Shown here piece by piece: positions 1-19,108 of a stretch of 19,108 nt of DNA. Made by a program: the position numbers and the translations under genes. The notes beneath the pieces are model-generated. The model did no database searches. It was not told where the DNA came from and saw only the letters and a program-made list of their open reading frames with translations. The first letter of the stretch is position 1, and the number at the start of each line of letters is the position of its first letter. The stretch lies in the IMG/VR virus record IMGVR_UViG_2534681697_000017, positions 1 to 19,108 of that record; one strand, given 5' to 3'. This DNA comes from a virus. Its lineage: Duplodnaviria; Heunggongvirae; Uroviricota; Caudoviricetes.

Positions 1-277
1 TGATAAAGCGTATTCAGGGCGCGCATTGCGCAACGAGCTGAAAAATAACGGTATAAAGGCAGTAATCCCCCGAAAGTCAAATGAGAAAATGGCATCGGAT
101 GGACGTGCACAGCTTGATCGTGATGCGTACCGCAATCGTAATGTCGTTGAACGGTGCTTTGGGCGGCTGAAAGAATATCGCCGCATCGCCACGCGTTACG
201 ACAAAACGGCGAGAAATTACCTGGCGATGGTGAAACTGGGCTGCATCCGACTCTTTTATCAACGCTTACGTAATTAA
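1..277 (+). CDS. DDE transposase, C-terminal portion (IS4/IS5 superfamily, IS427-like tail); 5' end lies outside the window
   Basis: The frame is open from base 2 to the stop at 275-277. The tail VVERCFGRLKEYRRIATRYDKTARNYLAMVKLGCIRL matches the conserved C-terminal block of IS5-family (IS427-group) transposases as I recall it. The exact IS is not recognised. Confidence 0.6.
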   Translation, partial: DKAYSGRALRNELKNNGIKAVIPRKSNEKMASDGRAQLDRDAYRNRNVVERCFGRLKEYRRIATRYDKTARNYLAMVKLGCIRLFYQRLRN

Positions 278-288
278 GGGACACAGCC
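1..288 (+). mobile_element. Partial IS element (right end), identity unresolved, abutting truncated IS600
   Basis: Transposase stop at 277; IS600 homology begins at 289, so the element terminus lies within about 278-288 (GGGACACAGCC). The boundary is inferred only from the loss of IS600 identity. Confidence 0.45.
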
Positions 289-793
289 TAATCTCCAGTT
301 TTAGCCGCTCATCACTTTGTTTTCTGTCTGAGGGTTCATGCTGTACCCAGTTGTAATAACCGCTCCTGGATACACCAAATACCTGACACATCGCTTCAAT
401 GGGAAATTGTTGTCGCCATTGTTCGATTAACGCGTATTTTTCAGCGACTCCTGTGCAAAATACGCTGTTGCTTTTTTTAATATATCTCGCTCAAGGCGAG
501 CTTCATTTAACGCCTTACGCAGTTGCAGAATTTCAGATTCCAGTTCAGCCACCGTGCGGGAACCAGGAGTACCGAGCCCTTTTCTGGCGGCGGTAACCCA
601 TTGTCCTAAAGTGCCTTCAGGAAGGGATAATCGGGAAGCGCCTTCACTGATCGAAAGTTGATTTTCAAGAACCGTTCTGACAGCTTCGGCTTTGAACTCT
701 TTAGAGTAACGTTGGGTTTTTCTGCTCATTATTAGCTCCTTCTGATGCCATTCTATTTCAGGAAGGAGTGTCCGTTAAACTCAGGCTACCTCA
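289..793 (-). mobile_element. IS600 (IS3 family), truncated copy: left inverted repeat, orfA and the first ~45 codons of orfB
   Basis: The reverse complement of 289-793 matches 2416-2920 of the complete IS600 copy at every position I compared by eye (terminal TGAGGTAGCCTGAGTTTAACGG through CTGGAGATTA); identity stops at 288/289. Confidence 0.85.
427..729 (-). CDS. IS600 OrfA (IS3-family transposase HTH subunit)
   Basis: 100-aa ORF identical in protein sequence to the orfA at 2480-2782; recognised as IS600 OrfA from memory. Confidence 0.85.
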   Translation of the reverse strand: MSRKTQRYSKEFKAEAVRTVLENQLSISEGASRLSLPEGTLGQWVTAARKGLGTPGSRTVAELESEILQLRKALNEARLERDILKKATAYFAQESLKNTR

Positions 794-952
794 CTGCGCA
801 ATTGGCATTGTGCGAATTATTCATTCAGTAAAAAAGATTGAGCGTTTTTTCACTGAAGAATAACAGCACAAATAAAACACACGATTAAATAAGAAAACAT
901 GAAAACAATCCGCACTCGCGGAGGTATCCATATATATAAACACGAGGTTAGC

Positions 953-1216
953 ATGCTCAGGACAAATCAAAAAATACTGAAGGATGCATATTTTGACAGG
1001 GGGCGAGATCTCGCAAAGCTTTGCGCCGCACTAAAAGAAATCAGTCAGTATTTCACTGATATTGAAGATGATATAGCTAACAAAGGTGCCAGTATTACAT
1101 TAGCGAACAGAGCACATTTTATGGGCTTTAATGTTTTCACAGCCATAAGAACATTAAAAGAACAAAAAGAAGAAATAGAAAAGCTCAAATACAGACATAA
1201 AGCCAAGAGGGTGTAA
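953..1216 (+). CDS. Hypothetical protein, first gene of a coupled six-gene cassette
   Basis: ORF open from 899; preferred start is ATG 953, preceded by GAGG (944-947) at 5-nt spacing. The stop overlaps the next start (TAATG at 1214-1218). No recognisable family. Confidence 0.4.
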   Translation: MLRTNQKILKDAYFDRGRDLAKLCAALKEISQYFTDIEDDIANKGASITLANRAHFMGFNVFTAIRTLKEQKEEIEKLKYRHKAKRV

Positions 1217-1419
1217 TGGCAATTAAGCATTTTCCTGTCGTTCGTTTCACCTCCAGAGACCGCGAATATGAGGTCGACGAACGACTGATTACCACTATCG
1301 ACAAACATCGTTCGGAAAAGGATGCACACCACATCTACCTCACTGACGGCACTTACTTCTGCGCCACCAACGTGGCGCGGGTGAATCTTATCCGACAGGT
1401 ACAGGAGCCACGTAGATGA
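1216..1419 (+). CDS. Hypothetical protein (67 aa)
   Basis: ATG 1216 preceded by AGAGGG; stop overlaps the next start (ATGA at 1416-1419), indicating translational coupling. Confidence 0.45.
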   Translation: MAIKHFPVVRFTSRDREYEVDERLITTIDKHRSEKDAHHIYLTDGTYFCATNVARVNLIRQVQEPRR

Positions 1420-1682
1420 CCATTCTGGACTACATCGCTACTCATCCGGGTTGTAGCGGCGGAGAGATCGCCGCAGCACTGAATACCCCAACCACAGCCA
1501 TTAATGCTGAGTTACGCCAACTTTGGCGCGGCGGCTTGGTCATCAGAACAAACCGCAGCACAGGTGGTCGCGCTCGCAAAACAGGAGGCCAGGCTTCTTA
1601 CCACGTAAACCCGATGCCATTCGGGTGTGGCAATCCACTTACTCACATGTTTAACCAGCTGCTGAAGGAAGCCAGAGCATGA
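1416..1682 (+). CDS. Hypothetical protein, possible winged-helix DNA-binding protein (88 aa)
   Basis: ATG 1416 with AGGAG upstream. The N-terminal LDYIATHPGCSGGEIAAALN...LRQLWRGGLVIR pattern resembles a winged-helix fold; that assignment is an inference. Confidence 0.45.
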   Translation: MTILDYIATHPGCSGGEIAAALNTPTTAINAELRQLWRGGLVIRTNRSTGGRARKTGGQASYHVNPMPFGCGNPLTHMFNQLLKEARA

Positions 1683-1978
1683 GCGCCATCAACCACCAGA
1701 AGCTACGCGAACTGGCATTTTCCCTGCAACGAATGGCAACGCCTCAAAAATTACTGGCATTTCGCGCAATGCTCTCGTCGTCTGCTGTGCTGGCACTGCT
1801 GGATGACCTGGAGCACGCCAGAACCACGGCTCCTGCCATTCGCCTGACACTCCATCATGAAATCGCTGATTTCTGCGCAACATTGGAGGCGCCAGGCGAA
1901 CCGGAAACGCCGGAAGCAATACAGCAAGAACTGCTGCAACGCATTGACAAGGTTTTCGATTTTTTCCTTAACCAGTAA
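1679..1978 (+). CDS. Hypothetical protein (99 aa)
   Basis: ATG 1679 overlaps the upstream stop (ATGA); GAAGGAAG ribosome-binding site upstream. Confidence 0.45.
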   Translation: MSAINHQKLRELAFSLQRMATPQKLLAFRAMLSSSAVLALLDDLEHARTTAPAIRLTLHHEIADFCATLEAPGEPETPEAIQQELLQRIDKVFDFFLNQ

Positions 1979-1988
1979 GGGCCGCAAC

Positions 1989-2192
1989 ATGAACAACAAG
2001 ACATGGTTTCGCGCATACATGTGGGCGCTGGTATGCGTCCTTGTCTCTCTCATTCTGTATGTAGGGGTACTCCCCCGAATGATTTCATCAGACAGCTCCT
2101 TCCTGGTATTGCTGGGCATTTTCATTGCCATGCTGTACCCGGCAGGCGTTGTTCGCCTTTTCAGTAAGTACATCAAGGAAATCAAACAATGA
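1989..2192 (+). CDS. Small membrane protein, two predicted transmembrane helices (67 aa)
   Basis: ATG 1989 inside the longer listed ORF 1857-2192. Two hydrophobic stretches (WALVCVLVSLILYVGVL and FLVLLGIFIAMLYPAGVV). Stop overlaps the next start (ATGA at 2189-2192). Confidence 0.45.
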   Translation: MNNKTWFRAYMWALVCVLVSLILYVGVLPRMISSDSSFLVLLGIFIAMLYPAGVVRLFSKYIKEIKQ

Positions 2193-2428
2193 AGAAATTC
2201 AAACTCTTTCAGATTCTCCCGCTTTTTGCCGCCATCCTGCTGGTTGGTTGCGATCGCGTTGAGCCAGGTAATGTGGGCATCAAAGTCAACAAGCTGGGCG
2301 ATGACAAAGGCGTTGGCGAAGTGGTTGGCGTTGGCCGCTACTGGACTGGCTGGAATACCGAGGTTTACATCTTCCCGACCTTCAAACAAATGAAGACCTA
2401 CGATGAGCCGTTCAGTGAGGTAGCCTGA
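2189..2428 (+). pseudogene. Lipoprotein with SPFH/band-7-like N-terminus, truncated by IS600 insertion
   Basis: Signal peptide plus lipobox (LLVGC). GNVGIKVNKLGD...YWTGWNTEVYIFPTFKQ resembles the start of SPFH-domain proteins. The last four codons and the stop (2417-2428) are encoded by the IS600 left terminus, so the native 3' end is missing. Confidence 0.5.
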
Positions 2429-2479
2429 GTTTAACGGACACTCCTTCCTGAAATAGAATGGCATCAGAAGGAGCTAATA

Positions 2480-2782
2480 ATGAGCAGAAAAACCCAACGT
2501 TACTCTAAAGAGTTCAAAGCCGAAGCTGTCAGAACGGTTCTTGAAAATCAACTTTCGATCAGTGAAGGCGCTTCCCGATTATCCCTTCCTGAAGGCACTT
2601 TAGGACAATGGGTTACCGCCGCCAGAAAAGGGCTCGGTACTCCTGGTTCCCGCACGGTGGCTGAACTGGAATCTGAAATTCTGCAACTGCGTAAGGCGTT
2701 AAATGAAGCTCGCCTTGAGCGAGATATATTAAAAAAAGCAACAGCGTATTTTGCACAGGAGTCGCTGAAAAATACGCGTTAA
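2480..2782 (+). CDS. IS600 OrfA
   Basis: 100-aa ORF with GGAG upstream; sequence recognised as IS600 OrfA (MSRKTQRYSKEFKAEAVR...). Confidence 0.9.
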   Translation: MSRKTQRYSKEFKAEAVRTVLENQLSISEGASRLSLPEGTLGQWVTAARKGLGTPGSRTVAELESEILQLRKALNEARLERDILKKATAYFAQESLKNTR

Positions 2783-2817
2783 TCGAACAATGGCGACAAC
2801 AATTTCCCATTGAAGCG

Positions 2818-3636
2818 ATGTGTCAGGTATTTGGTGTATCCAGGAGCGGTTATTACAACTGGGTACAGCATGAACCCTCAGACAGAAAACAAAGTGATGA
2901 GCGGCTAAAACTGGAGATTAAGGTGGCACATATCCGCACTCGCGAAACATATGGAACCCGGCGGCTCCAGACGGAGCTGGCAGAGAATGGCATCATCGTT
3001 GGTCGTGACCGACTGGCACGTCTTCGTAAGGAGCTAAGGCTACGCTGTAAGCAGAAACGCAAGTTCAGAGCGACTACGAACCCGAACCACAATCTGCCAG
3101 TTGCGCCAAATCTGCTGAACCAGACGTTCGCTCCTACAGCACCAAATCAGGTCTGGGTGGCGGACCTGACGTATGTTGCCACACAGGAGGGATGGTTGTA
3201 CCTCGCTGGCATCAAAGATGTTTATACGTGCGAAATTGTCGGCTACGCCATGGGAGAGCGCATGACAAAAGAGCTGACAGGTAAAGCCCTGTTTATGGCG
3301 CTCAGGAGCCAGCGCCCACCTGCCGGGCTAATCCACCACTCTGATCGAGGTTCACAGTACTGCGCATACGATTACCGGGTCATACAGGAGCAGTTTGGTC
3401 TGAAAACATCAATGTCGCGTAAAGGTAACTGTTACGACAACGCTCCGATGGAAAGCTTCTGGGGAACGCTGAAAAATGAGAGCCTGAGCCACTATCGTTT
3501 TAATAACCGGGATGAAGCCATCTCAGTAATACGGGAATACATTGAGATTTTCTACAATCGTCAGCGTCGTCACTCTCGTCTGGGGAATATCTCCCCGGCA
3601 GCCTTCAGGGAAAAATATCATCAGATGGCTGCTTAA
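2818..3636 (+). CDS. IS600 OrfB (DDE integrase-type transposase); normally made as an OrfAB fusion by -1 frameshifting
   Basis: 272-aa ORF with an rve-type DDE core (HSDRGSQY...CYDNAPMESFWGTLK). Coordinates are from the first in-frame ATG; the frame is open upstream into the orfA overlap. Confidence 0.9.
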   Translation: MCQVFGVSRSGYYNWVQHEPSDRKQSDERLKLEIKVAHIRTRETYGTRRLQTELAENGIIVGRDRLARLRKELRLRCKQKRKFRATTNPNHNLPVAPNLLNQTFAPTAPNQVWVADLTYVATQEGWLYLAGIKDVYTCEIVGYAMGERMTKELTGKALFMALRSQRPPAGLIHHSDRGSQYCAYDYRVIQEQFGLKTSMSRKGNCYDNAPMESFWGTLKNESLSHYRFNNRDEAISVIREYIEIFYNRQRRHSRLGNISPAAFREKYHQMAA

Positions 3637-3660
3637 AAAAAGAACAAATGGTAGTGTCCG

Positions 3661-3879
3661 CTATTGCCAGTACACCTCAAAATCACGGGTATGTAGAATT
3701 TTCGATGGTTCACCTGAATAAACCTCATCCAGAGCTCTAACGTATTCGAGAGTTTCAGCGTTGGACAACCAGTGATCCAGACGCTTCCCGAAACGTTTTG
3801 CAATATCAGTGGCATTAATCCAGCCATCAGTATTGAAGCGGATAGGTTCGCCTTTGTAATTCAGTGGAACGATATTCAT
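3661..3879 (-). pseudogene. KilA-N-like phage protein (possible antirepressor N-terminal domain), 3'-truncated by IS600
   Basis: The N-terminus MNIVPLNYKGEPIRFNTDGWINATDIAKRFGK resembles KilA-N domains. The ORF runs into the IS600 right end (native sequence only 3680-3879). Confidence 0.45.
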
Positions 3880-4026
3880 AGCGTCTTACCTTTTAGAAAG
3901 ATGAGCCTGTTCGCACAGAAAAGCCGTCCCCGAGATGGTCGCCACCATATACGGCAGTTCTCAGGCTCAGCTTTCTGAAAAACTCGGGATTGTTACGCGC
4001 TGCGATGCGCGGTTTACTGCGGACAT

Positions 4027-4052
4027 ATAAAAGCCCCGCAAGTGCGAGGCTC
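4027..4052 (-). terminator. Putative intrinsic terminator downstream of Rz
   Basis: Minus-strand RNA AGCCUCGC-ACUU-GCGGGGCU forms an 8-bp stem (one G-U pair) followed by UUUUAUA, about 30 nt after the Rz stop. Confidence 0.4.
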
Positions 4053-4083
4053 ATTAAATGGACTTTGTGATTTGCAAAAAAAT

Positions 4084-4551
4084 TTATTTCAGGCACTGAG
4101 TCCTGATGTACTCCTGAAGCATTCTCAATGCTGTCTGGTCGCTGATGATTCCGTCCCGGATACCGAGAACGTTTCGTCCAGCAACTGGAGAGAGTTCGAC
4201 GGTGGCATCATTGCCCATGCCGGAGGCGCTGGAGGTTTCGGCTGAGGATGGCACAGGGCATTTTCCTTTGACGAGCACCCGACCACCATTATCAAGCTTG
4301 CGCCGAAGAGCATCATTTTCAGCTTTCGCATCAGCTAACTCCTTCGTGTATTTAGCATCGAGTGCATCAGCAGCACGCTGGCGCTGCTGCATGTCAGTAA
4401 TGGTTGCGTTCGCCAGCTTCAGTTCTCTTGCGTTTTTGTCGCGCTGCTCTTTGTAGGTAATGGCGTTATCACGGTAATGATTAACAGCCCATGACAGGCG
4501 GACGATGATGCAGATAACCAGAGCGGAGATAATCGCGGTGACTCTGCTCAT
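4084..4551 (-). CDS. Rz: Rz, inner-membrane spanin (i-spanin)
   Basis: N-terminal transmembrane segment then a charged coiled-coil region; sits immediately after the endolysin with the start overlapping its stop; contains an embedded lipoprotein ORF in the +1 frame. Start taken as ATG 4551 (the listed ORF begins at GTG 4563). Confidence 0.8.
4125..4331 (-). CDS. Rz1: Rz1, outer-membrane lipoprotein spanin (o-spanin), embedded in Rz
   Basis: [19 protein letters not shown] lipoprotein signal followed by a proline-rich segment ([11 protein letters not shown]), entirely inside Rz in another frame: the classic Rz/Rz1 arrangement. Confidence 0.7.
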
Positions 4552-5021
4552 TGCTGCCCCCACAAACAGACTTCACGCTCAATCTCACGACGGGTCATCA
4601 GCCCTTTCCATTGCTTACCGCCAGCATATGTCCAGCGACGTAGCTGGTCACATGCGCCTTTGATATCGCCCTGGTTTATTTTGCGAAGAAGCGTCGATGT
4701 TCTGAAATTGCCAGCGCCCACGTTGTAAACGAACGAGTAAAGAGCGCCGCGCGTTGTTTCCGGTATATCGACTTTGATGTACGGGTTAATTTGTCTGGCG
4801 ACAGTGGCAAGGTCTTTATTCAGGAGAGCTTTGCATTCTGCTTCGGTATACGTTTTACCAGGCATGATGTCTTTTCCGGTGTGTCCGTGACATACAGTCC
4901 ATACACCAATGATATCTTTGTATGGTATGTAGCTGACACCTTCCAGACCATCGTTACCACCTGGGCCAGTGATTAACACAGATGCTATAGCAAACAGCCC
5001 CGCCACCAATAGCAACTGCAA
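4548..5021 (-). CDS. R: Phage lysozyme (P21 R-like SAR endolysin); N-terminus disrupted by a frameshift, listed ORF starts at a TTG
   Basis: [15 protein letters not shown]...[15 protein letters not shown] matches P21-type endolysin as recalled. The expected ATG (5046-5044, overlapping the S stop as TAATG) opens a different frame that stops after 30 codons ([30 protein letters not shown]). See findings. Confidence 0.7.
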
Positions 5022-5045
5022 CAGCCTTGCGTAATGATGGCGACA

Positions 5046-5261
5046 TTATTCACCTCTCGCAGCCTTACGCTTATCTTCTCTTATTTTGAAATACAGATTC
5101 GTCAGATAAGTCAGAAGCCCCAGAAGCAGACTTCCCAGCACACCAATCGCAGCCCACTGTGATGGACTGACCTGATCCAACCACTGCAAAAACCAGTAGC
5201 CGGCACTGCCGGCGGAGGTGCCGTAGGCAATGCCCGTTGAAATTTTATCCATGGATTTCAT
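5046..5261 (-). CDS. S: Class II holin, P21 S-like pinholin with dual-start motif
   Basis: [71 protein letters not shown] is near-identical to S21 as I recall it; Met1-Lys-Ser-Met4 dual start; strong GGAGGTGAGG ribosome-binding site upstream. Confidence 0.85.
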
Positions 5262-5550
5262 AGCCTCACCTCCGCAAATAACGGATGGCGTAGTTCTTAT
5301 ATTGGGAAGGGAAAAAGAAGGCCGCAGCGTAACTGTCACTGATGAATTCAGGATAGCCAGTGGCTACGGCTCAGTTTTGGTTGTGCTGTTGCTGGGCGGC
5401 GATGACGCCTGTACGCATTTGGTGATCCGGTTCTGCTTCCGGCATTCGCTTAATTCAGCACAACGGAAAGAGCATTTATGACTCGCATCGCGGGAAAAAG
5501 CCCACGGTAGAGAGTCGAACTCTACAAATGCTCTTACCTGTTGTGAAAAC

Positions 5551-5580
5551 AAAAAAGCCCCGACGTTTCTGCCGAGGCTC
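5551..5580 (-). terminator. Intrinsic terminator upstream of the lysis cassette (tR'-like position)
   Basis: Minus-strand AGCCUCGGC-AGAAAC-GUCGGGGCU forms a 9-bp stem (two G-U pairs) followed by UUUUUU. Confidence 0.5.
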
Positions 5581-5812
5581 TTACCTAATCTAGCCAGTAT
5601 GTCGACCCTAAATATTATCGACGACCGGGGAAATCAGGATTTCAATTTCACTGCTCAGTTCGCTTTTGCTCCGAGCATATGCAAAAAATACCACTTTCAT
5701 TTCTCGGAAGCAACGCATTTACAAAATTATTTCAGTTCAGGCCGCTATTAATGGAAATTCTTTATCCAATTCTCGTTTCATTGCATAAAACATTTCTGAC
5801 TCCAGCACTTTC

Positions 5813-6263
5813 TCACACCACTCGCTTACGACAATACTGAATATCAGCACCTGTTATATAAGAAATAATCCTGGCTATATCTTGCGTGCAATTGCGATTG
5901 CAATATCGCTTAATAGCTACATCGCGGACAGGGCTTTCACGGTGAAACGTCTTAACCATGTCCGGCATCCCACTGAGCAGACGTGAGCGTTCCGCACGAG
6001 ATACATGGTAAATAGCGATCACGCTCCCTGATATAAGCATTTACTGCCTGCTGTGCCTGCTTCAGCCAGTAACTGCGGGGTTTTAAATCGCGGCGTCTTG
6101 CTTTCAGCTTGTCTGCCTGTTCTTTTGCTGAGGCTATAGCCTTTTCTTTTCTGACCAGTTCCAGTGCACACTGACCACAACAAACTTTCTGATATGAGCG
6201 GAACGGCACAAACTGATTGCCACACACTTTGCAGTTTTTGGGTTTACGCTGTTTCATTATCAC
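5813..6263 (-). pseudogene. ninG: ninG (rap)-like recombination protein gene, disrupted
   Basis: The first 103 codons (5952-6263) match lambda NinG as recalled ([43 protein letters not shown]) and then hit a stop; the downstream sequence continues only in another frame. Confidence 0.6.
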
Positions 6264-6264
6264 C

Positions 6265-6714
6265 TCAGAAAAACGACAGCAGGCGGTTATTCAGTTCAGG
6301 ATTGTTTGTACGCCCAAACACGTGTTTCAGCGCGGCATTAATCATTGCGTTGTAGCAACGTTCAAACTCATCCTGATCCATATTCGCGTAACTCAGGCTT
6401 TTTGCCCGATATCTCACCTCACCTCTTATGGTTGTGACCACATCATAGAACCCGGCAAGAATTGTCAGATTTTTACGAAACTCATCAAACTGCGTCGCTT
6501 CATCAGAGAATTCGTATCCGGCGTGTTCAGCACACCAGTACTGAAAGCAAAAATTAAGAAAAGCGAACATCTTCCGGTGAAAAGATGGATTACGGGTAAG
6601 ATTTGCTTCCAGCGTGTACAGCTCACCGTTTTTAAATTTTGCCAGTCGGGGTAAATCGCGTTCATACGCCGGTATAAATACGCCATTAGCAGCCTTGATC
6701 ATCTCCAGCTCCAT
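6265..6714 (-). CDS. Conserved phage protein of unknown function (149 aa)
   Basis: Intact ORF whose ATG overlaps the upstream stop (ATGA at 6711-6714); lies between the primase gene and ninG. Family assignment not secure; it does not resemble Q. Confidence 0.6.
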
Positions 6715-7673
6715 CAGGCAGCCTCCGCTTTGAATTTGCGCGTCAACACATGTTCACGGGCCTCACACCCCTGAATGAGCATGTCGTTAAAATCCGGCAA
6801 GTCAGGCCAGCGAATACTGACCTTCTCCACGTCATTACGACTCATGAGATTCTTATGCCCACATTTAAAGGCAGCCGCCAGACCTGCACCATGCTCGTCA
6901 TTGTCAGCAAAGATAATCAGGTGATTAACGCCAGGTGGAGCAATAAACTTCTCCATAAAGCCAGAATTCATTGTTGACCATACGTTGCAGCGAAATATCT
7001 GGCGACATGACAGCGCCGTCTCAATCCCCTCTGCAATTCCCAGAGTTGATGACACCGGATACAGGCGTATCGCTACAGATTTGGCATATTCCAGATAAGA
7101 TTGCTCCTGTAATGCCAGCGCTTTTTTGGCAGCCTCCACACCCGCTTTGCGATCGCCATCCAGCAAGGTACGGTGCAGGTAACACAGCATGCCTTTATCA
7201 TCTGTTACGATTGAATAAATCGCCTGGTACTCCCGTCCATTAGCAATCTGCCGATTACAAAAACGAACGGATTCTGCCGGTAACTGGAGGATCCCCCTGT
7301 TTTTCAGATATGCCTCTCCTGAAGTTCCGCGCAAACATGGCAATCTGGCAAATTTAGCTGTAACCCTCTCCCGGTTTCTGGTTGTGTCAGTCACAACAGG
7401 TCTTGCGTGCTCTTTTTTCCAAGTATTACCAATCAGTCGATCGATTTCATCGCACAGAGTCACCCAAGGCTTACCCGTTGCCAGTTGCAACAACTGCATC
7501 CCATCGCCATGACCACAGACACATATCCACGATCCTGTTCCGCAACGGAATTTACCTTTAGCGCCGCAAATGGGGCAGGTGCCCTTGTAATGTTTACCGC
7601 CAGTGACAGGAGGCATACCGTAGTATTCAAAAATCCGCTCCCAGTGCCCCTTTGCTGCCTCCTTAGTTTGCAT
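6714..7673 (-). CDS. Zinc-ribbon plus Toprim domain protein (phage DNA primase-like)
   Basis: N-terminal Cys cluster (CPICGAKGKFRC...WICVCGHGD) and a Toprim-like acidic motif (LIIFADNDEHGAG); GGAGG ribosome-binding site; coupled to the helicase gene upstream. Confidence 0.75.
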   Translation of the reverse strand: MQTKEAAKGHWERIFEYYGMPPVTGGKHYKGTCPICGAKGKFRCGTGSWICVCGHGDGMQLLQLATGKPWVTLCDEIDRLIGNTWKKEHARPVVTDTTRNRERVTAKFARLPCLRGTSGEAYLKNRGILQLPAESVRFCNRQIANGREYQAIYSIVTDDKGMLCYLHRTLLDGDRKAGVEAAKKALALQEQSYLEYAKSVAIRLYPVSSTLGIAEGIETALSCRQIFRCNVWSTMNSGFMEKFIAPPGVNHLIIFADNDEHGAGLAAAFKCGHKNLMSRNDVEKVSIRWPDLPDFNDMLIQGCEAREHVLTRKFKAEAA

Positions 7674-9183
7674 GCTGGCCTCCGGTCATGGCTTTCTTGC
7701 GCCCTTTGGCATAGGCAATGATCTTTGACTTGATGAAATTGTGCACTTCAACCGAGGTTTGCAGCGGCGCGTTACTGAAGCCTTTAGGCCACACCCCGAA
7801 CTTCTCTTTGTAGGTATGAGCGCACCATCCGTCACTCAGTGGCTTACCTGTCGCGTTGCGGTAATTCTGATAGCCCTTGATCTCACTCCACCACCGCTGT
7901 TTTTCCTCGCGGCTGTATTCGCGTTTCCCTTTGTTTACGCGAGAGAGTTTTCGATCGCGGTCTGTTGCCACATCATCGCCACCAAGAGGACGAAACCCAC
8001 ATTTGGGACACATGTGTACACCAGCAGGCTTCATGAAGTGGCATTTGGGGCATTCTCTGGGAAGTTTTTCAGCTTTAACCTCGCCACCGCCAGCAGACGC
8101 TTTCATTCCGTCATTTTTGCCCGGCAGTTCGTCATACTCGATATCCTCGGGGAAACCCAGCCGATGAACCGTGCCAGAATGGTCGAAAATCAACGCACGT
8201 TGTTTACCTGGGGCTGTACGTAACGCTCTACCTATGCACTGCAACCAACGGATTTCTGATTTTGTCGGACGGGCATAGATCAGGCAGCGAACATCGCTGT
8301 CAAATCCCGCAACCAGTACGCCGACGTTGACAATTATTTTGGTCACGCCCTCTTCAAAACGGCGAATGATGTCCTGTCGTTCATCATGGAGGGTATCTGC
8401 CATCATCACCTCTGCGCCAATACCGGCCTGTAAAAACTCACGGGTAACAAAATTCGCATGCGCAACATTCACACAGAAGCAGATCGTCGGCAAATCCTCA
8501 CCATTCTCAAGCCAGTTGCGAACGATATCGCCAACCAGATCCGAACTCCCCATGATGGATGCGAGCTGCTCCTCGTTGTAATCCCGTCCAAATACGGTGT
8601 TACTGGTTTTTACGCCAGCCAGATCAGGCATTGAGGGGGCAAAAAACTCATAATCGCTCAGATCACCACGCTGAATAAGTTCACGAATCGTTGTAGGCTT
8701 GATCAGGCATTCGTAGTACTTCCCCATCCAGGCTGCGAACGGGGTACCGGAAAGTCCAAGAACCCTGATGTCTCTGTCCCGGATAACCTCAAGTAACGCA
8801 CGACGCTTCATGTGTGCTTCATCGATGATCAGCAGATCGATGTTGTCAGGAAACTCACGACGGATCAGCGTGTCGGCACTGGCAATCTGAATCAGTCGTG
8901 ACGGGTCATAGTTAGGGTGATCACGCCATACAAAACTGATTTCTTCCCACGGCAAACCGTATTCGGTGAAACGTTCCGCTGTCTGGTTCAGCAGGATGGT
9001 GTACGGACAGACAAACATCACTCGCATACCACGTTCAACCATTCCGGCGGTGACGAATGCTGCAAGACCAGTTTTGCCAGAGCCAGTGGGTGCATACATC
9101 AGGTACGTGCGATGCTGTTTCCACTGGTGCCGCAGCTGGTTTAAACCGCGCTCCTGAGCAAAGTTTGGGATTATTTTCAGCAT
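7663..9183 (-). CDS. Superfamily-2 DEAD/DEAH-box helicase with C-terminal zinc ribbon (phage replicative helicase)
   Basis: Walker A (APTGSGKT), DEAH box (LLIIDEAHM), C-terminal CPKCHFMKP...CPKCGF. 506 aa. Confidence 0.8.
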   Translation of the reverse strand: MLKIIPNFAQERGLNQLRHQWKQHRTYLMYAPTGSGKTGLAAFVTAGMVERGMRVMFVCPYTILLNQTAERFTEYGLPWEEISFVWRDHPNYDPSRLIQIASADTLIRREFPDNIDLLIIDEAHMKRRALLEVIRDRDIRVLGLSGTPFAAWMGKYYECLIKPTTIRELIQRGDLSDYEFFAPSMPDLAGVKTSNTVFGRDYNEEQLASIMGSSDLVGDIVRNWLENGEDLPTICFCVNVAHANFVTREFLQAGIGAEVMMADTLHDERQDIIRRFEEGVTKIIVNVGVLVAGFDSDVRCLIYARPTKSEIRWLQCIGRALRTAPGKQRALIFDHSGTVHRLGFPEDIEYDELPGKNDGMKASAGGGEVKAEKLPRECPKCHFMKPAGVHMCPKCGFRPLGGDDVATDRDRKLSRVNKGKREYSREEKQRWWSEIKGYQNYRNATGKPLSDGWCAHTYKEKFGVWPKGFSNAPLQTSVEVHNFIKSKIIAYAKGRKKAMTGGQHAN

Positions 9184-9563
9184 GACGCCCCCTTGCTACG
9201 TGATTTACCCGTTGCCGGGATCACGTCGATCTCATCGCTAACGTATTGATCCGGATTACGTGAACAGCGCAGAAGCACGATACCAGGAATGCCGTATAGC
9301 TTGAGTCTGCGCAGTTTCAGTATTGAACGTGCCCGTGGTGACGCTCTGTCCACCTCGATCGCGCACCGTTCACCAGATGGGGCAACGACCATGATATCGA
9401 CGAATCCGCGCTTACCGTTGCCCATATCAACCAGATAATTACGTTCGATCGCCAGTCCGGCATCACGCAATTTGGCAGCCAGCACATAATCAAACGTGAC
9501 CTTGTCTTTTCCGGTGTAGAATTTGTTTCCGAGCAGGCTGATAACCACATGTTTGATGAACAT
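9177..9563 (-). CDS. Hypothetical protein, possibly nuclease-fold (VRR-NUC/PD-(D/E)xK-like), coupled to the helicase
   Basis: 128-aa ORF whose stop overlaps the helicase start. The GFVDIMVV...AIEVD segment loosely resembles a PD-(D/E)xK core; weak inference. Confidence 0.45.
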   Translation of the reverse strand: MFIKHVVISLLGNKFYTGKDKVTFDYVLAAKLRDAGLAIERNYLVDMGNGKRGFVDIMVVAPSGERCAIEVDRASPRARSILKLRRLKLYGIPGIVLLRCSRNPDQYVSDEIDVIPATGKSRSKGASC

Positions 9564-9785
9564 GGTACTATTTCCACCGCAATAGTTGGCATAATAATAA
9601 TTTCGCCAGAAACCATCTCACCCTATACAGTGATCTACCTAACCTATGGAGCTGCCTTCCTCTGGTAGTGCCCTTACAGGCACGGATGTTACAGATCTGC
9701 CCCCTTACCCCCTTCTTAGTAAAATTTCAAGCGCAATGATTTCATGAGAAATCATTTCACAAAAAAATAATCACCTTGATGAGAT

Positions 9786-10067
9786 CTATTCCTTCCGTAT
9801 CGCTACTGGCGAAAGCATCCAGCCACGGCTGGCTCTCGCGTACTTCTGGACATACACCCGTAACCGGGTGTTGGCACTCCGTCTTGCCCTGTTGCCCTTC
9901 CTGAACGATACAGGCTCCTTGTCCCACTCTTCCTGGTACACTCTCGCGTACTCTGCTGCAATTTTTACCCTGGTGGTCGGGTCTAGCTGTAACAATTGCT
10001 CCTGTATCCAGTCCCGATCAGCATCACAGTACTGATCGGGCATAACCGTTTTGATTTGCCTGTTCAC
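9786..10067 (-). CDS. Hypothetical protein (93 aa), first gene after cro-like
   Basis: GTG start at 10067 preceded by GGAGGTG at 5-nt spacing; an alternative ATG lies at 10043. No recognisable domain. Confidence 0.5.
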   Translation of the reverse strand: MNRQIKTVMPDQYCDADRDWIQEQLLQLDPTTRVKIAAEYARVYQEEWDKEPVSFRKGNRARRSANTRLRVYVQKYARASRGWMLSPVAIRKE

Positions 10068-10089
10068 TCACACCTCCGATGGAGGGTTA

Positions 10090-10329
10090 TCAGGCTGTTT
10101 GCCTTACATGAAGCGGAATACCATCTTCCATGTTTAGGTAGTCATGCGGGTTTAGTTCATGGGGAGTTACATTCCAGTCTGTAGCTTTTGCCCATTCAAT
10201 GGCTTTCCGCCCCTGAGGCATGTATCTCCCTGTAATAACCCCACTGACAAATCCCTGAGAAACTCCAACAATCGCCGCAAAATCGGCTTGTCTGATAGAG
10301 CTTTGTCTCAAGTACTCGTCAAGAGTCAT
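10090..10329 (-). CDS. Cro-like HTH regulator (Cro/YdaS-type)
   Basis: Transcribed divergently from cI; helix-turn-helix SIRQADFAAIVGVSQGFVSGVITGR; GGGAGG ribosome-binding site 7 nt upstream of the ATG. Confidence 0.65.
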   Translation of the reverse strand: MTLDEYLRQSSIRQADFAAIVGVSQGFVSGVITGRYMPQGRKAIEWAKATDWNVTPHELNPHDYLNMEDGIPLHVRQTA

Positions 10330-10434
10330 AGAGATCCTCCCATTTCAATTTTCCGATATTAGCTTACCTGATTTAAATGTCAATAGGCTAGCTATTTGAT
10401 AAATATTTGTGTTGCTAATAAAATTGGAGGCACT
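10330..10434. promoter_or_regulatory. cI/cro divergent intergenic control region (oR-like, pR/pRM-like)
   Basis: 105-bp AT-rich spacer between divergent repressor genes; contains an imperfect dyad TAGCTTACC...GGCTAGCTA. Operators are not individually resolved. Confidence 0.5.
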
Positions 10435-11154
10435 ATGACGAAGAAAATTACAATTACTGACAAAGACATCCAGAACGCTGAACGACTGCGCAAAATCTGG
10501 GATGAAAAACGGAAACAGCTATCCCTAAGCCAGGAAAAAGCCGCAGATATCCTCGGCTTCAAAACGCAGGGGGCTGTTAGTCAGTTATTGAACGCAAAAA
10601 TTGCGTTAAATACTGAAAATACCCTTAAGTTTGCGGCTTTATTACAGGTTCCTGCGGAAGAAATTAATCCAGATCTGAGTGATTTGTTACGCAGTATTCG
10701 TACCCACACACCGGGAAACAGGCGTAACCTGTTCGAGAAATATTACGAATATCCGTTACTCTCCTGCGTACAGGCTGGAGCTTTCTCAATGGATGATTTT
10801 TCGTACACCGCAAAGGATGCGATTAAGTGGATCTCCACCACCACAAAAGCCAGTGACAGGTCGTTCTGGCTGGAGGTCAAGGGGCATTCAATGACCGCGC
10901 CGCAGGGTGGTAAACCCAGTTTCCCCGAAGGGATGCTGATACTCGTTGACCCTGAGCGGGAGATTGAGGATGGCGATTTTTGCGTGGCCCGAATGAATGG
11001 CGATGAATTCACCTTCAAACGATTCATTCGTGAGAGCGGTAAAGCGTACCTGGAGCCACTCAACCCACGATTCGACATGATTGAGTGTAACGAAAACTGC
11101 CAGTTTGTCGGAAAGGTCATAAAGTCGCAGTGGAATGATGAGACTTTTGATTGA
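10435..11154 (+). CDS. cI: Lambda-family CI repressor (HTH plus S24 LexA-like autopeptidase domain)
   Basis: C-terminal half ([32 protein letters not shown]...[11 protein letters not shown]...[14 protein letters not shown]) closely resembles the lambda CI C-terminal domain as recalled, including an Ala-Gly site (VQAGAF). N-terminal HTH is divergent. Start at ATG 10435 with GGAGG upstream. Confidence 0.9.
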
Positions 11155-11275
11155 ACTCACAGGATGATATCAATAACCTTGCAGGGAGGCTATTTTATTT
11201 CCTTTTTCAGCGAAAAATCTCCGAGAACCCTCGCCCAATGCGGGCGGGGAGCAGTCGCAATCAAGTGAGCCATAA

Positions 11276-11446
11276 ATGAACAAAGACAAATCCTTGACAC
11301 AACAAGTGGAAGAAATACTTAGCAAGCAAAAAGTTAGCGAGCAAGGAAAAATGATTCAATCATTAAAGAACATGGGCTTGATCAACAAGCCTGTTTTTAC
11401 TTTGGCTTATGGACCAGATATTACAACCTGCCAAATGCACCAATAA
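11276..11446 (+). CDS. Small ORF (56 aa) downstream of cI, unknown function
   Basis: ATG 11276 to TAA 11444-11446, immediately followed by a strong terminator; weak ribosome-binding site; below the size cutoff of the supplied ORF track. Confidence 0.3.
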   Translation: MNKDKSLTQQVEEILSKQKVSEQGKMIQSLKNMGLINKPVFTLAYGPDITTCQMHQ

Positions 11447-11478
11447 CAAAACCCGGCCTTGGTGCCGGGTTTTGTTTG
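11447..11478. terminator. Bidirectional intrinsic terminator between the cI and hicAB transcription units
   Basis: AAAACCCGGC-CTTGGT-GCCGGGTTTT perfect 10-bp stem, flanked by T-runs on both strands. Confidence 0.7.
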
Positions 11479-11560
11479 CCTCCTGCTCACCCCACCATTT
11501 ACCAGTGCGCCGTAAATTCCCCATTCTTCGGCGGTGAGGATGTCAAAGACGAAGGGAACA

Positions 11561-11905
11561 TTAAGCCCCTGTGTGATGGTTGACTTCTTTTTCCAGCGCC
11601 TTATTAACAAAGGCGTTCAGTGATAAATCTTCTTCCATCGCCATTTCAGCGACCCGACGATGCAGTTCTGGATCAAGTCTGACGTTAAACACACCTTTAA
11701 ACGGGGTATCAGGCTCCTTTCCATCCTCCACACAAGACTGTAAATACAGCTCAACCGATGTCTTAAACTCCTGTTCCAGTTCAGCTAATGTAGAAGCCTC
11801 ATAAGTTACCAGGTCTCGAATAAACGCCAGTTTTCCGTACAGGATATTATTTTCAAAATCTGGTTCTACTGTACCTAAATATCCTTTATATTTTAGATGA
11901 TTCAT
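11561..11905 (-). CDS. hicB: HicB-family antitoxin (HicB fold plus C-terminal ribbon-helix-helix)
   Basis: ATG overlaps the hicA stop (ATGA at 11902-11905); C-terminal ELHRRVAEMAMEEDLSLNAFVNKALEKEV is RHH-like. Confidence 0.7.
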   Translation of the reverse strand: MNHLKYKGYLGTVEPDFENNILYGKLAFIRDLVTYEASTLAELEQEFKTSVELYLQSCVEDGKEPDTPFKGVFNVRLDPELHRRVAEMAMEEDLSLNAFVNKALEKEVNHHTGA

Positions 11906-12156
11906 AATACCCCAGCCTCTTTCAGATTCTGTTTAATCGCTTTCAGCGTTCCACCTTTAATATAACTTTCTGGATGTGGGCGATGCATTAATATGGTGTG
12001 GTTGATTTCAGCATTGAAAAACCGCACTCTTGAGCCCTGCATTTCCTTTTTGACATATCCCAGAGAGGAAAACAAAACGACCAACTCATCCCATTCAAAC
12101 GTTTTTTTACTGTTTAAAAACTTTTCCAGTAGCTTATCTGCTTTCCCCATACCCAC
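11902..12156 (-). CDS. hicA: HicA-family toxin (mRNA interferase)
   Basis: GSRVRF...HRPHP...IKGGTLKAIKQNLKEAG matches the HicA consensus. The listed start is GTG 12156; an alternative ATG lies at 12150. Confidence 0.7.
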   Translation of the reverse strand: MGMGKADKLLEKFLNSKKTFEWDELVVLFSSLGYVKKEMQGSRVRFFNAEINHTILMHRPHPESYIKGGTLKAIKQNLKEAGVL

Positions 12157-12305
12157 ATAATCTCATCTTCGCTACATTGCAACTAATTATAGTTACAGGC
12201 GATGTTTTTGTCAAAAGCCACCAAGCCCGCTGGGTTCTCTTTGACTGTTCACTGCTTTTCTTAGTGTTATCAGGGGGTTCCCTCACACCAAATCTAACAC
12301 AGAGT

Positions 12306-16227: not shown

Positions 16228-17174
16228 TGGATGAAGTGATTTTTACTTATAACGAAGAATCAGCACTGACCGCCGGACAAGGTGGTTTTATTACCGAAAC
16301 GGGTGCGCATATCATTAACATCACCGAAGCAGAACTCAAGCAATCAGAAAAAGGTGCCCGATTCATTGAGTTTTCTGGAGAATCCGACGACGGACGGAAA
16401 ATCCAATATCTCAGTGTTTGTGTTCAGAAGAATGACGGCACTGAAAATAAATTTGGGGCGAGCATTATTCACGCCATGATGGGATGCACAGGAATTGGGC
16501 AGTTAACGCAACATATGGTTTCCGTCAGTGAATCAAAACAAATATCTGAATGCTATGTGGCGCAAAGGAGGCAAACAGTGAGCGAAATTGACTATCAGGC
16601 ACTGCGTGAAAAGGCAGAGAAAGCAACGTGGGGTGTGTGGTCGCTCGAATATGGAGAGGAGAAACTTGATGCTGATGATGCGCTAATTCACCGTGAAGTT
16701 GTTGGATATCTTCCTATTTGCAGAATTGAAGGAGCGCATCCTGAAAGCGGTTTCGATGAAGATTTCCAAATGGAACAGCAGGCCAATGCTGAATTCATCG
16801 CCGCAGCCAATCCGGCTACTGTGCTGACACTGCTGAGCGAGCTGGAAACAGCAAAAAAGCGCATAGCAGAACTGGAAGCCAAACCTGTAAGCCAGACTTA
16901 CAAGTTGAATGAGATGTCGGGCAACTCTCCGGTAATTCCGGATGGTTGGATAAGCTGTAGTGATCGAATGCCTGAAAAGGGCCAGAACGTACTTATTTCG
17001 GTGAATTTCGATAGCTCTCTGGTTGAACCGCTAATATGCTCCGCACGCTATACCGGAGGTACATTCCGGCGTGGAGATGTAACGGTTAAGCCAGGTAATG
17101 GTATTGAACAGGCAACCCACTGGATAGACTGGCCCCCTGAATCTCCAGACAACCAGTATCACTTAAATAAGTGA
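16227..17174 (+). CDS. Ead/Ea22-like protein with C-terminal DUF551-like domain; last ~15 codons and stop supplied by the IS2 terminus
   Basis: [22 protein letters not shown] is Ea22-like; the C-terminal ...ATHW resembles the DUF551 end. The reading frame continues into the IS2 left inverted repeat ([16 protein letters not shown]). Confidence 0.6.
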
Positions 17175-17357
17175 TAGTCTTAATACTAGTTTTTAGACTA
17201 GTCATTGGAGAACAGATGATTGATGTCTTAGGGCCGGAGAAACGCAGACGGCGTACCACACAGGAAAAGATCGCAATTGTTCAGCAGAGCTTTGAACCGG
17301 GGATGACGGTCTCCCTGAACCGCCCCGGGTTTCCTGGAGAGTGTTTTATCTGTGAAC

Positions 17358-18240
<883 letters not shown>

Positions 18241-18244
<4 letters not shown>

Positions 18245-18567
18245 TTTTTCCAGAGGCGGTCGAACTCCGCCTTCGCAAAATAAGCGGAAGCCTGGCGAAG
18301 GATATCGTTACTGCGGCGCAGTTCACGATTTTCACGCTCCAGCTCTTTCAGACGCTGACGTTCAGCGGTGGTGAGCCCTCCATCACCGCCCCCGGTATCC
18401 CGCTCATGCTGGCGAACCCAGACACGCAGAGTCTCCGGCGTACAGCCAATCTTTGGAGCAATGGAACAAATTGTCGCCCATTGTGAGTCATATTCGCCCT
18501 GACTTTCCAGAACCATACGGACTGCCCGTTGACGGACTTCGGGGGAAAAACGAGTATTTTTAGTCAT
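18241..18567 (-). CDS. IS629 OrfA
   Basis: 108-aa [42 protein letters not shown]... recognised from memory. Confidence 0.9.
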
Positions 18568-18847
18568 CCTGTTTACCTCTTTCTCAGGAAGTTTAGTCTC
18601 CAGGATTCCCGGGGCGGTTCACCCTCGTTGCCCGGCAACATGGTGTAGCAGCCAGCCAGTTATTTCTCTGGCGTAAGCAATACCAGGAAGGAAGTCTTAC
18701 TGCTGTGGCCGCCGGAGAACAGGTTGTTCCTGCCTCTGAACTTGCTGCCGCCATGAAGCAGATTAAAGAACTCCAGCGCCTGCTCGGCAAGAAAACGATG
18801 GAAAATGAACTCCTCAAAGAAGCCGTTGAATATGGACGGGCAAAAAA

Positions 18848-19108
18848 GTGGATAGCGCACGCGCCCTTATTGCCCGGGGATGGGGAGTAAGCTTAGTCAG
18901 CCGTTGTCTCCGGGTGTCGCGTGCGCAGTTGCACGTCATTCTCAGACGAACCGATGACTGGATGGATGGCCGCCGCAGTCGTCACACTGATGATACGGAT
19001 GTGCTTCTCCGTATACACCATGTTATCGGAGAGCTGCCCACGTATGGTTATCGTCGGGTATGGGCGCTGCTTCGCAGACAGGCAGAACTTGATGGTATGC
19101 CTGCGATC
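18848..19108 (+). CDS. insD: IS2 OrfB (InsD), 5' portion; 3' end outside window
   Basis: GTG 18848 then [45 protein letters not shown]... recognised as InsD; the frame is open to the window end. Confidence 0.8.

What the first reader, a model, noticed from the sequence alone, without database searches (positions are those of the whole stretch)
289..3679. A 1.6-kb cargo segment bounded by two inverted IS600 left ends with mismatched flanks: footprint of IS-mediated rearrangement
The complete IS600 (2416-3679) has no target duplication. Its left flank is the interior of a plus-strand lipoprotein gene and its right flank is the interior of a minus-strand KilA-N-like gene, so the two sides come from different loci. 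A second, truncated IS600 (289-793) is inverted, with its left inverted repeat facing the same segment. The segment 794-2415 is thus flanked by two outward-facing IS600 left ends, as expected after inversion or deletion by recombination between IS600 copies. Both left-end flanks are CAG.
Basis: seen in the sequence. Interest (0 to 1): 0.55.

Follow-up and report, generated by a model that had tools for sequence, protein, structure and literature searches.

The report
IS600-scrambled prophage remnants in Shigella boydii
A fragment of one dead prophage is joined to a second prophage through a copy of the insertion sequence IS600, which is the ordinary, well-documented IS-driven genome scrambling seen in Shigella, and this particular join sits in a draft assembly and cannot be fully verified.

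Summary
A complete 1264-bp IS600 lies at 2416-3679. Its flanks are CAG on the left and AAA on the right, so it has no target-site duplication. A 505-bp left-end fragment of IS600 lies inverted at 289-793, cut off by an ISSfl7-like IS at 1-288. The 1622 bp between them is not cargo. It is a collinear piece of the early region of a P88/P2-like prophage. The right flank belongs to a different, lambdoid prophage (KilA-N', lysis genes).

The window is a whole draft contig of Shigella boydii ATCC 9905. A nearly identical closed chromosome, CP026875.1, carries the two halves 1.3 Mb apart. Each half abuts an identical IS600, and the two copies are in inverted orientation. The window's join is therefore either an oriC-spanning inversion by recombination between those copies (about 0.6) or a draft mis-join across the repeat (about 0.3).

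Both IS600 copies also lack duplications in the closed genome. Ten of 20 IS600 copies sampled from closed Shigella genomes lack one, and the other ten have a 3-4 bp duplication.

IS-mediated rearrangement is supported, but it is routine for Shigella. The shared CAG is native target sequence. Novelty: already known. Interest is low.

The parts
1..288 (+). 3' end of an ISSfl7-like IS5-family element. Its right inverted repeat (...AAGGGACACAGCC) ends at 288, and it truncates the inverted IS600.
   Evidence: NCBIfam IS5 family transposase, E=1.6e-24. It is 99.8-99.9% identical to E. coli copies annotated 'IS5-like element ISSfl7 family transposase'. The full copy is in the closed genome at L003 7188-8102, with its left flank inside chpS.
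289..793 (-). Truncated IS600: the left-end 505 bp, including orfA at 427-729. It is in reverse orientation, with the left terminus at 793 abutting the prophage segment.
   Evidence: 100% reverse-complement match to 2416-2920. The same structure is present in the closed genome.
794..796 (.). CTG flank (CAG in IS orientation) of the truncated copy's left end. It is native prophage sequence.
   Evidence: E. coli prophage L001 has ctg at the homologous position 9001-9003.
794..2415 (+). 1622-bp remnant of the early region of a P88/P2-like prophage. It holds five small ORFs (899-1216, 1216-1419, MarR-like 1416-1682, 1679-1978, 1989-2192) and the 5' 227 nt of an SPFH-domain lipoprotein gene that starts at 2189.
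   Evidence: 95% identical and fully collinear with E. coli P2-like prophages, lying between cox/DUF4754 and the replication endonuclease gene. 89% identical to phage P88. MarR_2 Pfam hit.
2413..2415 (.). CAG flank of the complete IS600 left end. It is native SPFH gene sequence.
   Evidence: L001 reads ...ccgttcag|cttccag at positions 10616-10630.
2416..3679 (+). Complete IS600 (1264 bp): orfA 2480-2782, A7 frameshift site 2731-2737, orfB 2818-3636.
3680..3682 (.). AAA flank of the IS600 right end. It does not match the left flank CAG.
   Evidence: The same right-end junction is present in the closed genome (L006) and in QWSH01000451.1 (L008).
3680..3879 (-). 5' fragment (about 66 codons) of a KilA-N gene of a defective lambdoid prophage. 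Upstream on the same strand lie Rz, lysozyme and holin (4084-5261).
   Evidence: Pfam KilA-N, E=1.8e-10. The intact 173-aa homologue sits between the lysis cassette and the terminase gene in E. coli.

Best explanation
This is ordinary IS scrambling of prophage remnants in Shigella boydii.

Inferred history:
1. A P88/P2-like prophage received two independent IS600 insertions in opposite orientations, 1622 bp apart. One was in a small ORF and one in the SPFH lipoprotein gene. Both were at native CAG triplets.
2. Each IS600 then lost its original right-hand neighbour.
3. The left copy was cut at base 505 by an ISSfl7-like element. That element's own far flank is now chpS.
4. The right copy exchanged its right half and flank with another, sequence-identical IS600 sitting in the KilA-N gene of a lambdoid prophage, through RecA-type homologous recombination.

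In the closed relative these two IS600 copies are inverted and 1.30 Mb apart, on opposite sides of oriC. The exchange therefore corresponds to an oriC-spanning chromosomal inversion.

Shown: the anatomy, the different origins of the flanks, the partner copies and their orientation, and the 3-bp duplication rule for simple IS600 insertions. Inferred: the order of events, homologous recombination as the mechanism, and that the draft join is real.

The confidence of 0.6 is for this full statement, including a real inversion. That the IS600 is a recombinant copy produced by IS-mediated rearrangement of some kind holds at about 0.9.
For: - Flank origins.
- Closed chromosome CP026875.1 differs from the whole 19.1-kb window by only 1 SNP plus single-base indels. 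It carries SPFH'-[IS600, + orientation]-TAC...sat at about 1.363 Mb, and KilA-N'-[IS600, - orientation]-portal' at about 2.662 Mb.
- Both of those IS600 copies are 100% identical to the window's copy, so they are ideal substrates for recombination.
- Backbone GC skew is -0.041 on the record's + strand at 1.36 Mb and +0.012 at 2.64 Mb. The orientation of K-12 backbone genes agrees. Together these place oriC between the two copies.
- In the same contig a 1.3-kb multicopy IS629 nested in IS2 is resolved exactly as in the closed genome. The assembler could therefore bridge IS-sized repeats correctly.
- Of 20 complete IS600 copies sampled in three closed Shigella chromosomes, 10 have a 3-4 bp duplication and 10 do not.
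- IS600-mediated and oriC-spanning inversions between close Shigella strains are published (PMC1550401). IS600 is one of five IS expanded in all Shigella, among 229-348 IS insertions of all kinds per reference chromosome (PMC7373316).
Against: - The join exists only in one draft contig. The only other long assembly holding both junction ORFs, the closed genome, has different partners.
- The IS600 copies are identical, so no hybrid-copy SNP pattern can prove recombination.
- The reciprocal junction (portal'-IS600-sat flank) could not be looked for in the draft.
- The position of oriC is inferred, not located.
- Neither arrangement restores a duplication, so at least one earlier event is also needed.
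Confidence: 0.6

Rival explanations
1. The join is a draft-assembly mis-join. The assembler stitched the SPFH' flank and the KilA-N' flank through a collapsed, identical 1264-bp IS600. The real ATCC 9905 chromosome would then be arranged like CP026875.1. The IS600 next to the P2 remnant would still be a recombinant copy, but its partner would be the sat-side flank.
For: The window is a complete draft contig that begins and ends inside IS elements. The closed genome is virtually identical in sequence (1 SNP in 19 kb) but has different partners. The IS600 copies are 100% identical, so only long-range information could link the flanks. No second assembly shows the window's join.
Against: Assemblers usually break at such repeats rather than join through them. 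The same contig traverses an IS629 copy correctly. The implied event is a biologically typical oriC-spanning inversion between inverted copies, whereas a random mis-join would more often imply a lethal deletion or an intra-replichore inversion.
Confidence: 0.3
2. The structure is a composite transposon. The two inverted IS600 copies mobilised the 1.6-kb segment as cargo to this site.
For: Two inverted IS600 copies bracket a discrete segment. In the closed genome the segment sits far from any P2-type attachment context, next to chpS/ppa.
Against: The left copy lacks its outer (right) end, so the unit has only one usable terminus. The outer flanks are an ISSfl7-like element and a KilA-N gene, so there is no duplication around the unit. 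The segment carries only prophage early ORFs and a truncated gene, collinear with an intact prophage. Both junctions are simple breaks in that prophage, as expected for a remnant left in place.
Confidence: 0.03
3. The rearrangement was catalysed by the transposase rather than by homologous recombination. Examples are intramolecular transposition or IS-dimer/junction-mediated adjacent deletion or inversion by IS600.
For: IS3-family elements can form reactive IS junctions (own knowledge of IS911, IS2 and IS30, not tested here). Two recombinant IS600 copies in the closed genome have reverse-complementary flanking triplets (TTT/AAA and CAT/ATG), which homologous recombination does not explain.
Against: In the window the flanks CAG/AAA show no such relation. 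Both partner sites carry full, identical IS600 copies in the closed genome, each still attached to its native flank on one side. That is exactly what reciprocal homologous exchange predicts. Two reverse-complement matches among 10 copies has a chance probability of about 0.01 and may reflect A/T-rich target triplets.
Confidence: 0.05

Closest known systems
IS-mediated chromosomal inversions between closely related Shigella strains (S. flexneri 5b 8401 versus 2a 301; PMC1550401)
   Same: These are large inversions bounded by inverted copies of the same IS. One was attributed to IS600 and others span oriC. They occur between strains that share more than 97% of their sequence.
   Different: Here the comparison is between a draft contig and a closed genome of S. 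boydii. The reciprocal junction was not seen, so the inversion is inferred from one junction only.
IS expansion and genome degradation in Shigella (PMC7373316, PMC8072062)
   Same: IS600 is one of the five IS expanded in all Shigella. There are hundreds of IS insertions per chromosome, interrupted genes, degraded prophages and high rearrangement rates.
   Different: Nothing differs in kind. This is one local instance with three nested IS events (ISSfl7-like into IS600, and IS600 into two prophage genes).
Escherichia phage P88 / P2-like (Xuanwuvirus) prophage early region
   Same: The segment 794-2415 has the same gene order and 89-95% nucleotide identity (small ORFs, MarR-like regulator, SPFH lipoprotein).
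   Different: Only 1.6 kb survives. Integrase, cox, the replication gene and all structural genes are absent from the neighbourhood.
Composite transposons such as Tn10 or Tn5 (inverted IS pair plus cargo)
   Same: Inverted copies of one IS bracket a unique segment.
   Different: One IS is truncated and lacks its outer end. There is no flanking duplication and no selectable cargo. The inner junctions are breaks in a single prophage.

Membership tests
IS600 (IS3 family) | About 1264 bp and near-identical to reference IS600 copies | tested here: met
   2416-3679 is 1264 bp and 100% identical to copies annotated 'IS3-like element IS600 family transposase'.
IS600 (IS3 family) | Imperfect terminal inverted repeats ending 5'-TG...CA-3' | tested here: met
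   TGAGGTAGCC...GGACAC at the left end and GTGTCC...ACACCTCA at the right end.
IS600 (IS3 family) | orfA (HTH) and orfB (DDE/rve) in the 0 and -1 frames, with an A-rich slippery site | tested here: met
   HTH_Tnp_1 E=1.5e-20, rve E=3.2e-26, NCBIfam transpos_IS3 E=8e-100. The heptamer A AAA AAA lies at 2731-2737 and orfB is in the -1 frame.
Simple IS600 insertion | 3-bp direct duplication of the target on both sides | tested here: not met
   CAG versus AAA in the window. For comparison, 9 of 20 other sampled copies have a 3-bp duplication and 1 has a 4-bp duplication.
Simple IS600 insertion | The two flanks are contiguous in genomes that lack the IS | tested here: not met
   The left flank continues as the SPFH gene in P2-like prophages. 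The right flank continues as KilA-N in lambdoid prophages.
Inversion by homologous recombination between inverted IS copies | A relative carries each flank next to its own IS copy, with the two copies in inverted orientation | tested here: met
   In CP026875.1 the IS600 is in + orientation at about 1.363 Mb and in - orientation at about 2.662 Mb. Both are 100% identical to the window's copy.
Inversion by homologous recombination between inverted IS copies | The reciprocal recombinant junction is present in the same genome | not testable with these tools
   Other AERN01 contigs could not be reached.
Composite transposon | Two IS copies, each with an intact outer end | tested here: not met
   The left copy stops at IS600 base 505 and lacks its right end.
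Composite transposon | Target duplication flanking the whole unit | tested here: not met
   The outer neighbours are an ISSfl7-like element and KilA-N'.

The most novel reading that the evidence does not exclude
The draft and the closed genome differ by only 1 SNP in 19 kb. They may therefore record a very recent, roughly oriC-symmetric 1.3-Mb inversion between identical IS600 copies within one S. boydii clone. That would mean ongoing large-scale structural flip-flop, possibly heterogeneity within cultures. In addition, the 1.6-kb segment between perfect 505-bp inverted repeats may itself be invertible.
Probability: 0.5. Interest if true: 0.2.

Novelty: already known. Interest (0 to 1): 0.1.

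Why it matters
It matters little beyond bookkeeping. It is one more example of how IS600 and other IS break up prophages and reshuffle Shigella chromosomes, a process already described at genome and population scale.

The practical value is as a caution. Contigs of draft Shigella assemblies that run through full IS copies can join loci that lie more than 1 Mb apart in closed relatives. Synteny or 'island' inferences from such contigs need long-read confirmation.

Tried and rejected
1. I tried to reach the reciprocal junction in the ATCC 9905 draft.
   - A protein-database search with the portal'-IS600 fusion ORF of the closed genome returned only relatives of 88% identity or less, not the exact protein.
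   - The cluster listing showed that the exact Sat protein carries an ATCC 9905-series accession (EFW56035.1), while the exact portal' fusion ORF is on record only in the closed genome. This does not decide the question.
2. I looked for diagnostic SNPs that would show a hybrid IS600. None exist, because all three copies are identical.
3. I searched all fetched loci for the missing halves: the 3' part of SPFH next to an IS600 right end, the 3' part of KilA-N next to a left end, and the P2 sequence left of 794. None were found in the 3 x 20 kb of the closed genome available.
4. The literature search for the accessions gave only the strain name.
5. Composite-transposon and 'cargo' readings were rejected (see rivals).
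6. The idea that the shared CAG is a shuffled target duplication was rejected. Both triplets are native prophage sequence.
7. The repeat finder start of 284 was rejected in favour of 289.
Full report
**What is in the sequence**

Positions 2416-3679 are a complete 1264-bp IS600.
- Its ends are TGAGGTAGCC... and ...ACACCTCA.
- It carries orfA (2480-2782, HTH_Tnp_1) and orfB (2818-3636, rve/DDE) in the 0 and -1 frames.
- An A7 slippery run lies at 2731-2737.
- It is 100% identical to copies that RefSeq annotates as 'IS3-like element IS600 family transposase'.
- Its flanks are CAG (2413-2415) and AAA (3680-3682), so there is no target duplication.

Positions 289-796 are the perfect reverse complement of 2413-2920 (BLAST). 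That makes 289-793 the left-end 505 bp of a second IS600 in the opposite orientation, also preceded by CAG when read in IS orientation.

At 288 the right inverted repeat of an IS5-family element ends (NCBIfam IS5). This element is 99.8-99.9% identical to E. coli copies annotated ISSfl7. It is what truncates the inverted IS600.

**What the flanks are**

The 1622 bp between the two IS600 left ends is 95% identical to, and fully collinear with, the early region of P2-like prophages in about 100 E. coli genomes. There it lies between cox/DUF4754 genes and the replication endonuclease gene. It is 89% identical to phage P88. It holds five small ORFs, one of them MarR-like, and the first 227 nt of an SPFH-domain gene with a lipobox.

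In E. coli the sequence runs straight on at both break points...ggtggc|ctgcgc... on the left and ...ccgttcag|cttccag... on the right. Both CAG/CTG triplets are therefore native target sequence. The segment is a remnant of one prophage hit twice by IS600, not cargo.

The right flank (3680 onward, minus strand) is the 5' 200 nt of a KilA-N gene, followed by Rz, lysozyme and holin of a lambdoid prophage. In E. coli the KilA-N gene is intact (173 aa) and lies between the lysis cassette and the terminase genes. The two sides of the complete IS600 thus come from two unrelated prophages.

**Provenance**

Exact look-ups of the two junction ORFs show that the window is the whole contig AERN01000035.1 of draft assembly GCA_000193915.2. 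That assembly is Shigella boydii ATCC 9905 (protein names). The contig starts inside the ISSfl7-like element and ends inside IS2.

**Comparison with a closed relative**

Chromosome CP026875.1 (5.16 Mb; its exact proteins are named S. boydii) matches the whole window, with only 1 SNP and a handful of single-base indels. At window position 2072 an independent Logan contig (L005, SRR1811688) agrees with the window, so there the closed genome lacks a base. The match falls in two blocks 1.3 Mb apart.

- At about 1.36 Mb the order is: chpB - chpS' - ISSfl7-like - IS600 fragment - P2 remnant - IS600 (+) - TAC... - sat autotransporter gene.
- At about 2.66 Mb the order is: mdtBA - integrase - lambdoid prophage - KilA-N' - IS600 (-) - portal'.

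Both IS600 copies are 100% identical to the window's copy and lie in inverted orientation. Crossing-over between them would produce exactly the window's junction and would invert the 1.30 Mb between them.

GC skew of the backbone is -0.041 on the record's + strand at 1.36 Mb and +0.012 at 2.64 Mb. The orientation of the K-12 backbone genes agrees. Together these place oriC inside that interval (inference), so the event would be an oriC-spanning inversion. [quoted passage not shown]

**Real or artefact**

The IS600 copies are identical, so no hybrid SNP pattern can prove recombination. I could not reach the other contigs of the draft to look for the reciprocal junction.

In favour of a real inversion:
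- Assemblers normally break at such repeats rather than join through them.
- The same contig resolves a multicopy IS629 nested in IS2 exactly as the closed genome does.
- The implied event is of the viable, commonly observed kind.

In favour of an artefact:
- Only this draft contig shows the join.
- The only other long assembly is almost identical in sequence yet arranged differently.

I put the odds at about 0.6 real and 0.3 mis-join.

**The general conclusion does not depend on this**

In the closed genome the IS600 next to the P2 remnant has flanks CAG/TAC, and the one in KilA-N has TTT/AAA. Neither has a duplication. The ISSfl7-like element also has unrelated flanks (chpS interior on one side, IS600 interior on the other). 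Both of its flanks are TA, which is uninformative if TA is its target.

I sampled 20 complete IS600 copies in three closed Shigella chromosomes:
- 9 have a 3-bp duplication.
- 1 has a 4-bp duplication.
- 10 have none.

The 3-bp duplication is therefore the rule for simple insertions, and recombinant copies are commonplace. CAG occurs at 4 of 21 left flanks, where 0.3 would be expected.

**Mechanism**

Shown: two IS600 left ends attached to native sites of one prophage; a right end attached to a different prophage; partner copies in a relative.

Inferred, in order:
1. Two independent insertions occurred in opposite orientation.
2. Reciprocal homologous exchange with other IS600 copies followed, at least twice for the complete copy, since neither arrangement restores a duplication.
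3. An ISSfl7-associated event removed the rest of the left copy.

The composite-transposon reading is rejected. The left copy has no outer end, there is no duplication around the unit, and the inner junctions are simple breaks in a single prophage. Transposase-mediated intramolecular rearrangement cannot be excluded but is not needed.

**Novelty**

IS600 is one of five IS expanded in all Shigella, where each reference chromosome carries 229-348 IS insertions of all kinds (PMC7373316). High rearrangement rates are documented (PMC8072062). This finding is a correct reading of an ordinary, already-known phenomenon, with the added caveat that it sits in a draft contig.

Noticed in passing
window 17125-19108: IS2 starts at 17125 (TAGACTGGCCCCCTGAATC...) and runs off the contig end. 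A complete IS629 (17316-18621, 25-bp terminal inverted repeats) is nested in its orfA with a clean CCC duplication. The arrangement is identical in the closed genome.
   Followed up: partly
window 1-288; L003 7188-8102: In the closed genome the ISSfl7-like IS5-family element has chpS interior on its left and IS600 interior on its right, with TA on both sides. This is a third junction with unrelated flanks in the same 4 kb.
   Followed up: partly
L006 10201-16006 (CP026875.1, about 2.66 Mb): The same architecture recurs in the closed genome. A 3.3-kb phage fragment (portal' plus a 539-aa ORF) is bounded by two inverted complete IS600 copies with their left ends inward. Both copies have reverse-complementary flanking triplets (TTT/AAA and CAT/ATG). 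For one copy this extends to a 10-bp palindrome, GATTT|AAATC. The chance probability is about 0.01 and the pattern is unexplained.
   Followed up: partly
IS600 left flanks in window, L013, L015: CAG directly precedes the IS600 left end at 4 of 21 sampled ends. One of these is a bona fide CAG duplication (L015). This suggests a target preference.
   Followed up: partly
window 67, 2072, 9188, 10569, 11246, 11467: At these positions the closed genome lacks a single C or G that the window has. At 2072 an independent Logan contig (L005, SRR1811688) agrees with the window, so at least there the closed genome lacks a base; if the other sites are the same kind of error, some of its gene calls are split by them.
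   Followed up: partly
window 3680-12160: The lambdoid prophage looks defective. There is no tRNA and no Q antiterminator gene call between the short NinG ORF (101 aa, 5952-6257) and holin (5046-5261). The lysozyme ORF (4548-5021) has no ATG and has an in-frame stop near its expected start. All head and tail genes are missing beyond KilA-N'.
   Followed up: partly
window 11561-12156 (minus strand): A HicA/HicB toxin-antitoxin pair lies inside the prophage immunity region (Pfam families listed).
   Followed up: no
L003 11492-17429 (CP026875.1, about 1.36 Mb): In the closed genome the sat serine-protease autotransporter gene (1295 aa; the exact protein is also recorded for ATCC 9905 as EFW56035.1) lies between two inverted IS600 copies that both lack duplications. 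This is another potentially invertible, IS-bounded block.
   Followed up: no
window 3680: The first base after the IS600 right end is A, where the E. coli KilA-N homologue has G (ccggAATCAC in E. coli versus AAATCAC in the window). This is either a SNP or a junction-associated change.
   Followed up: no
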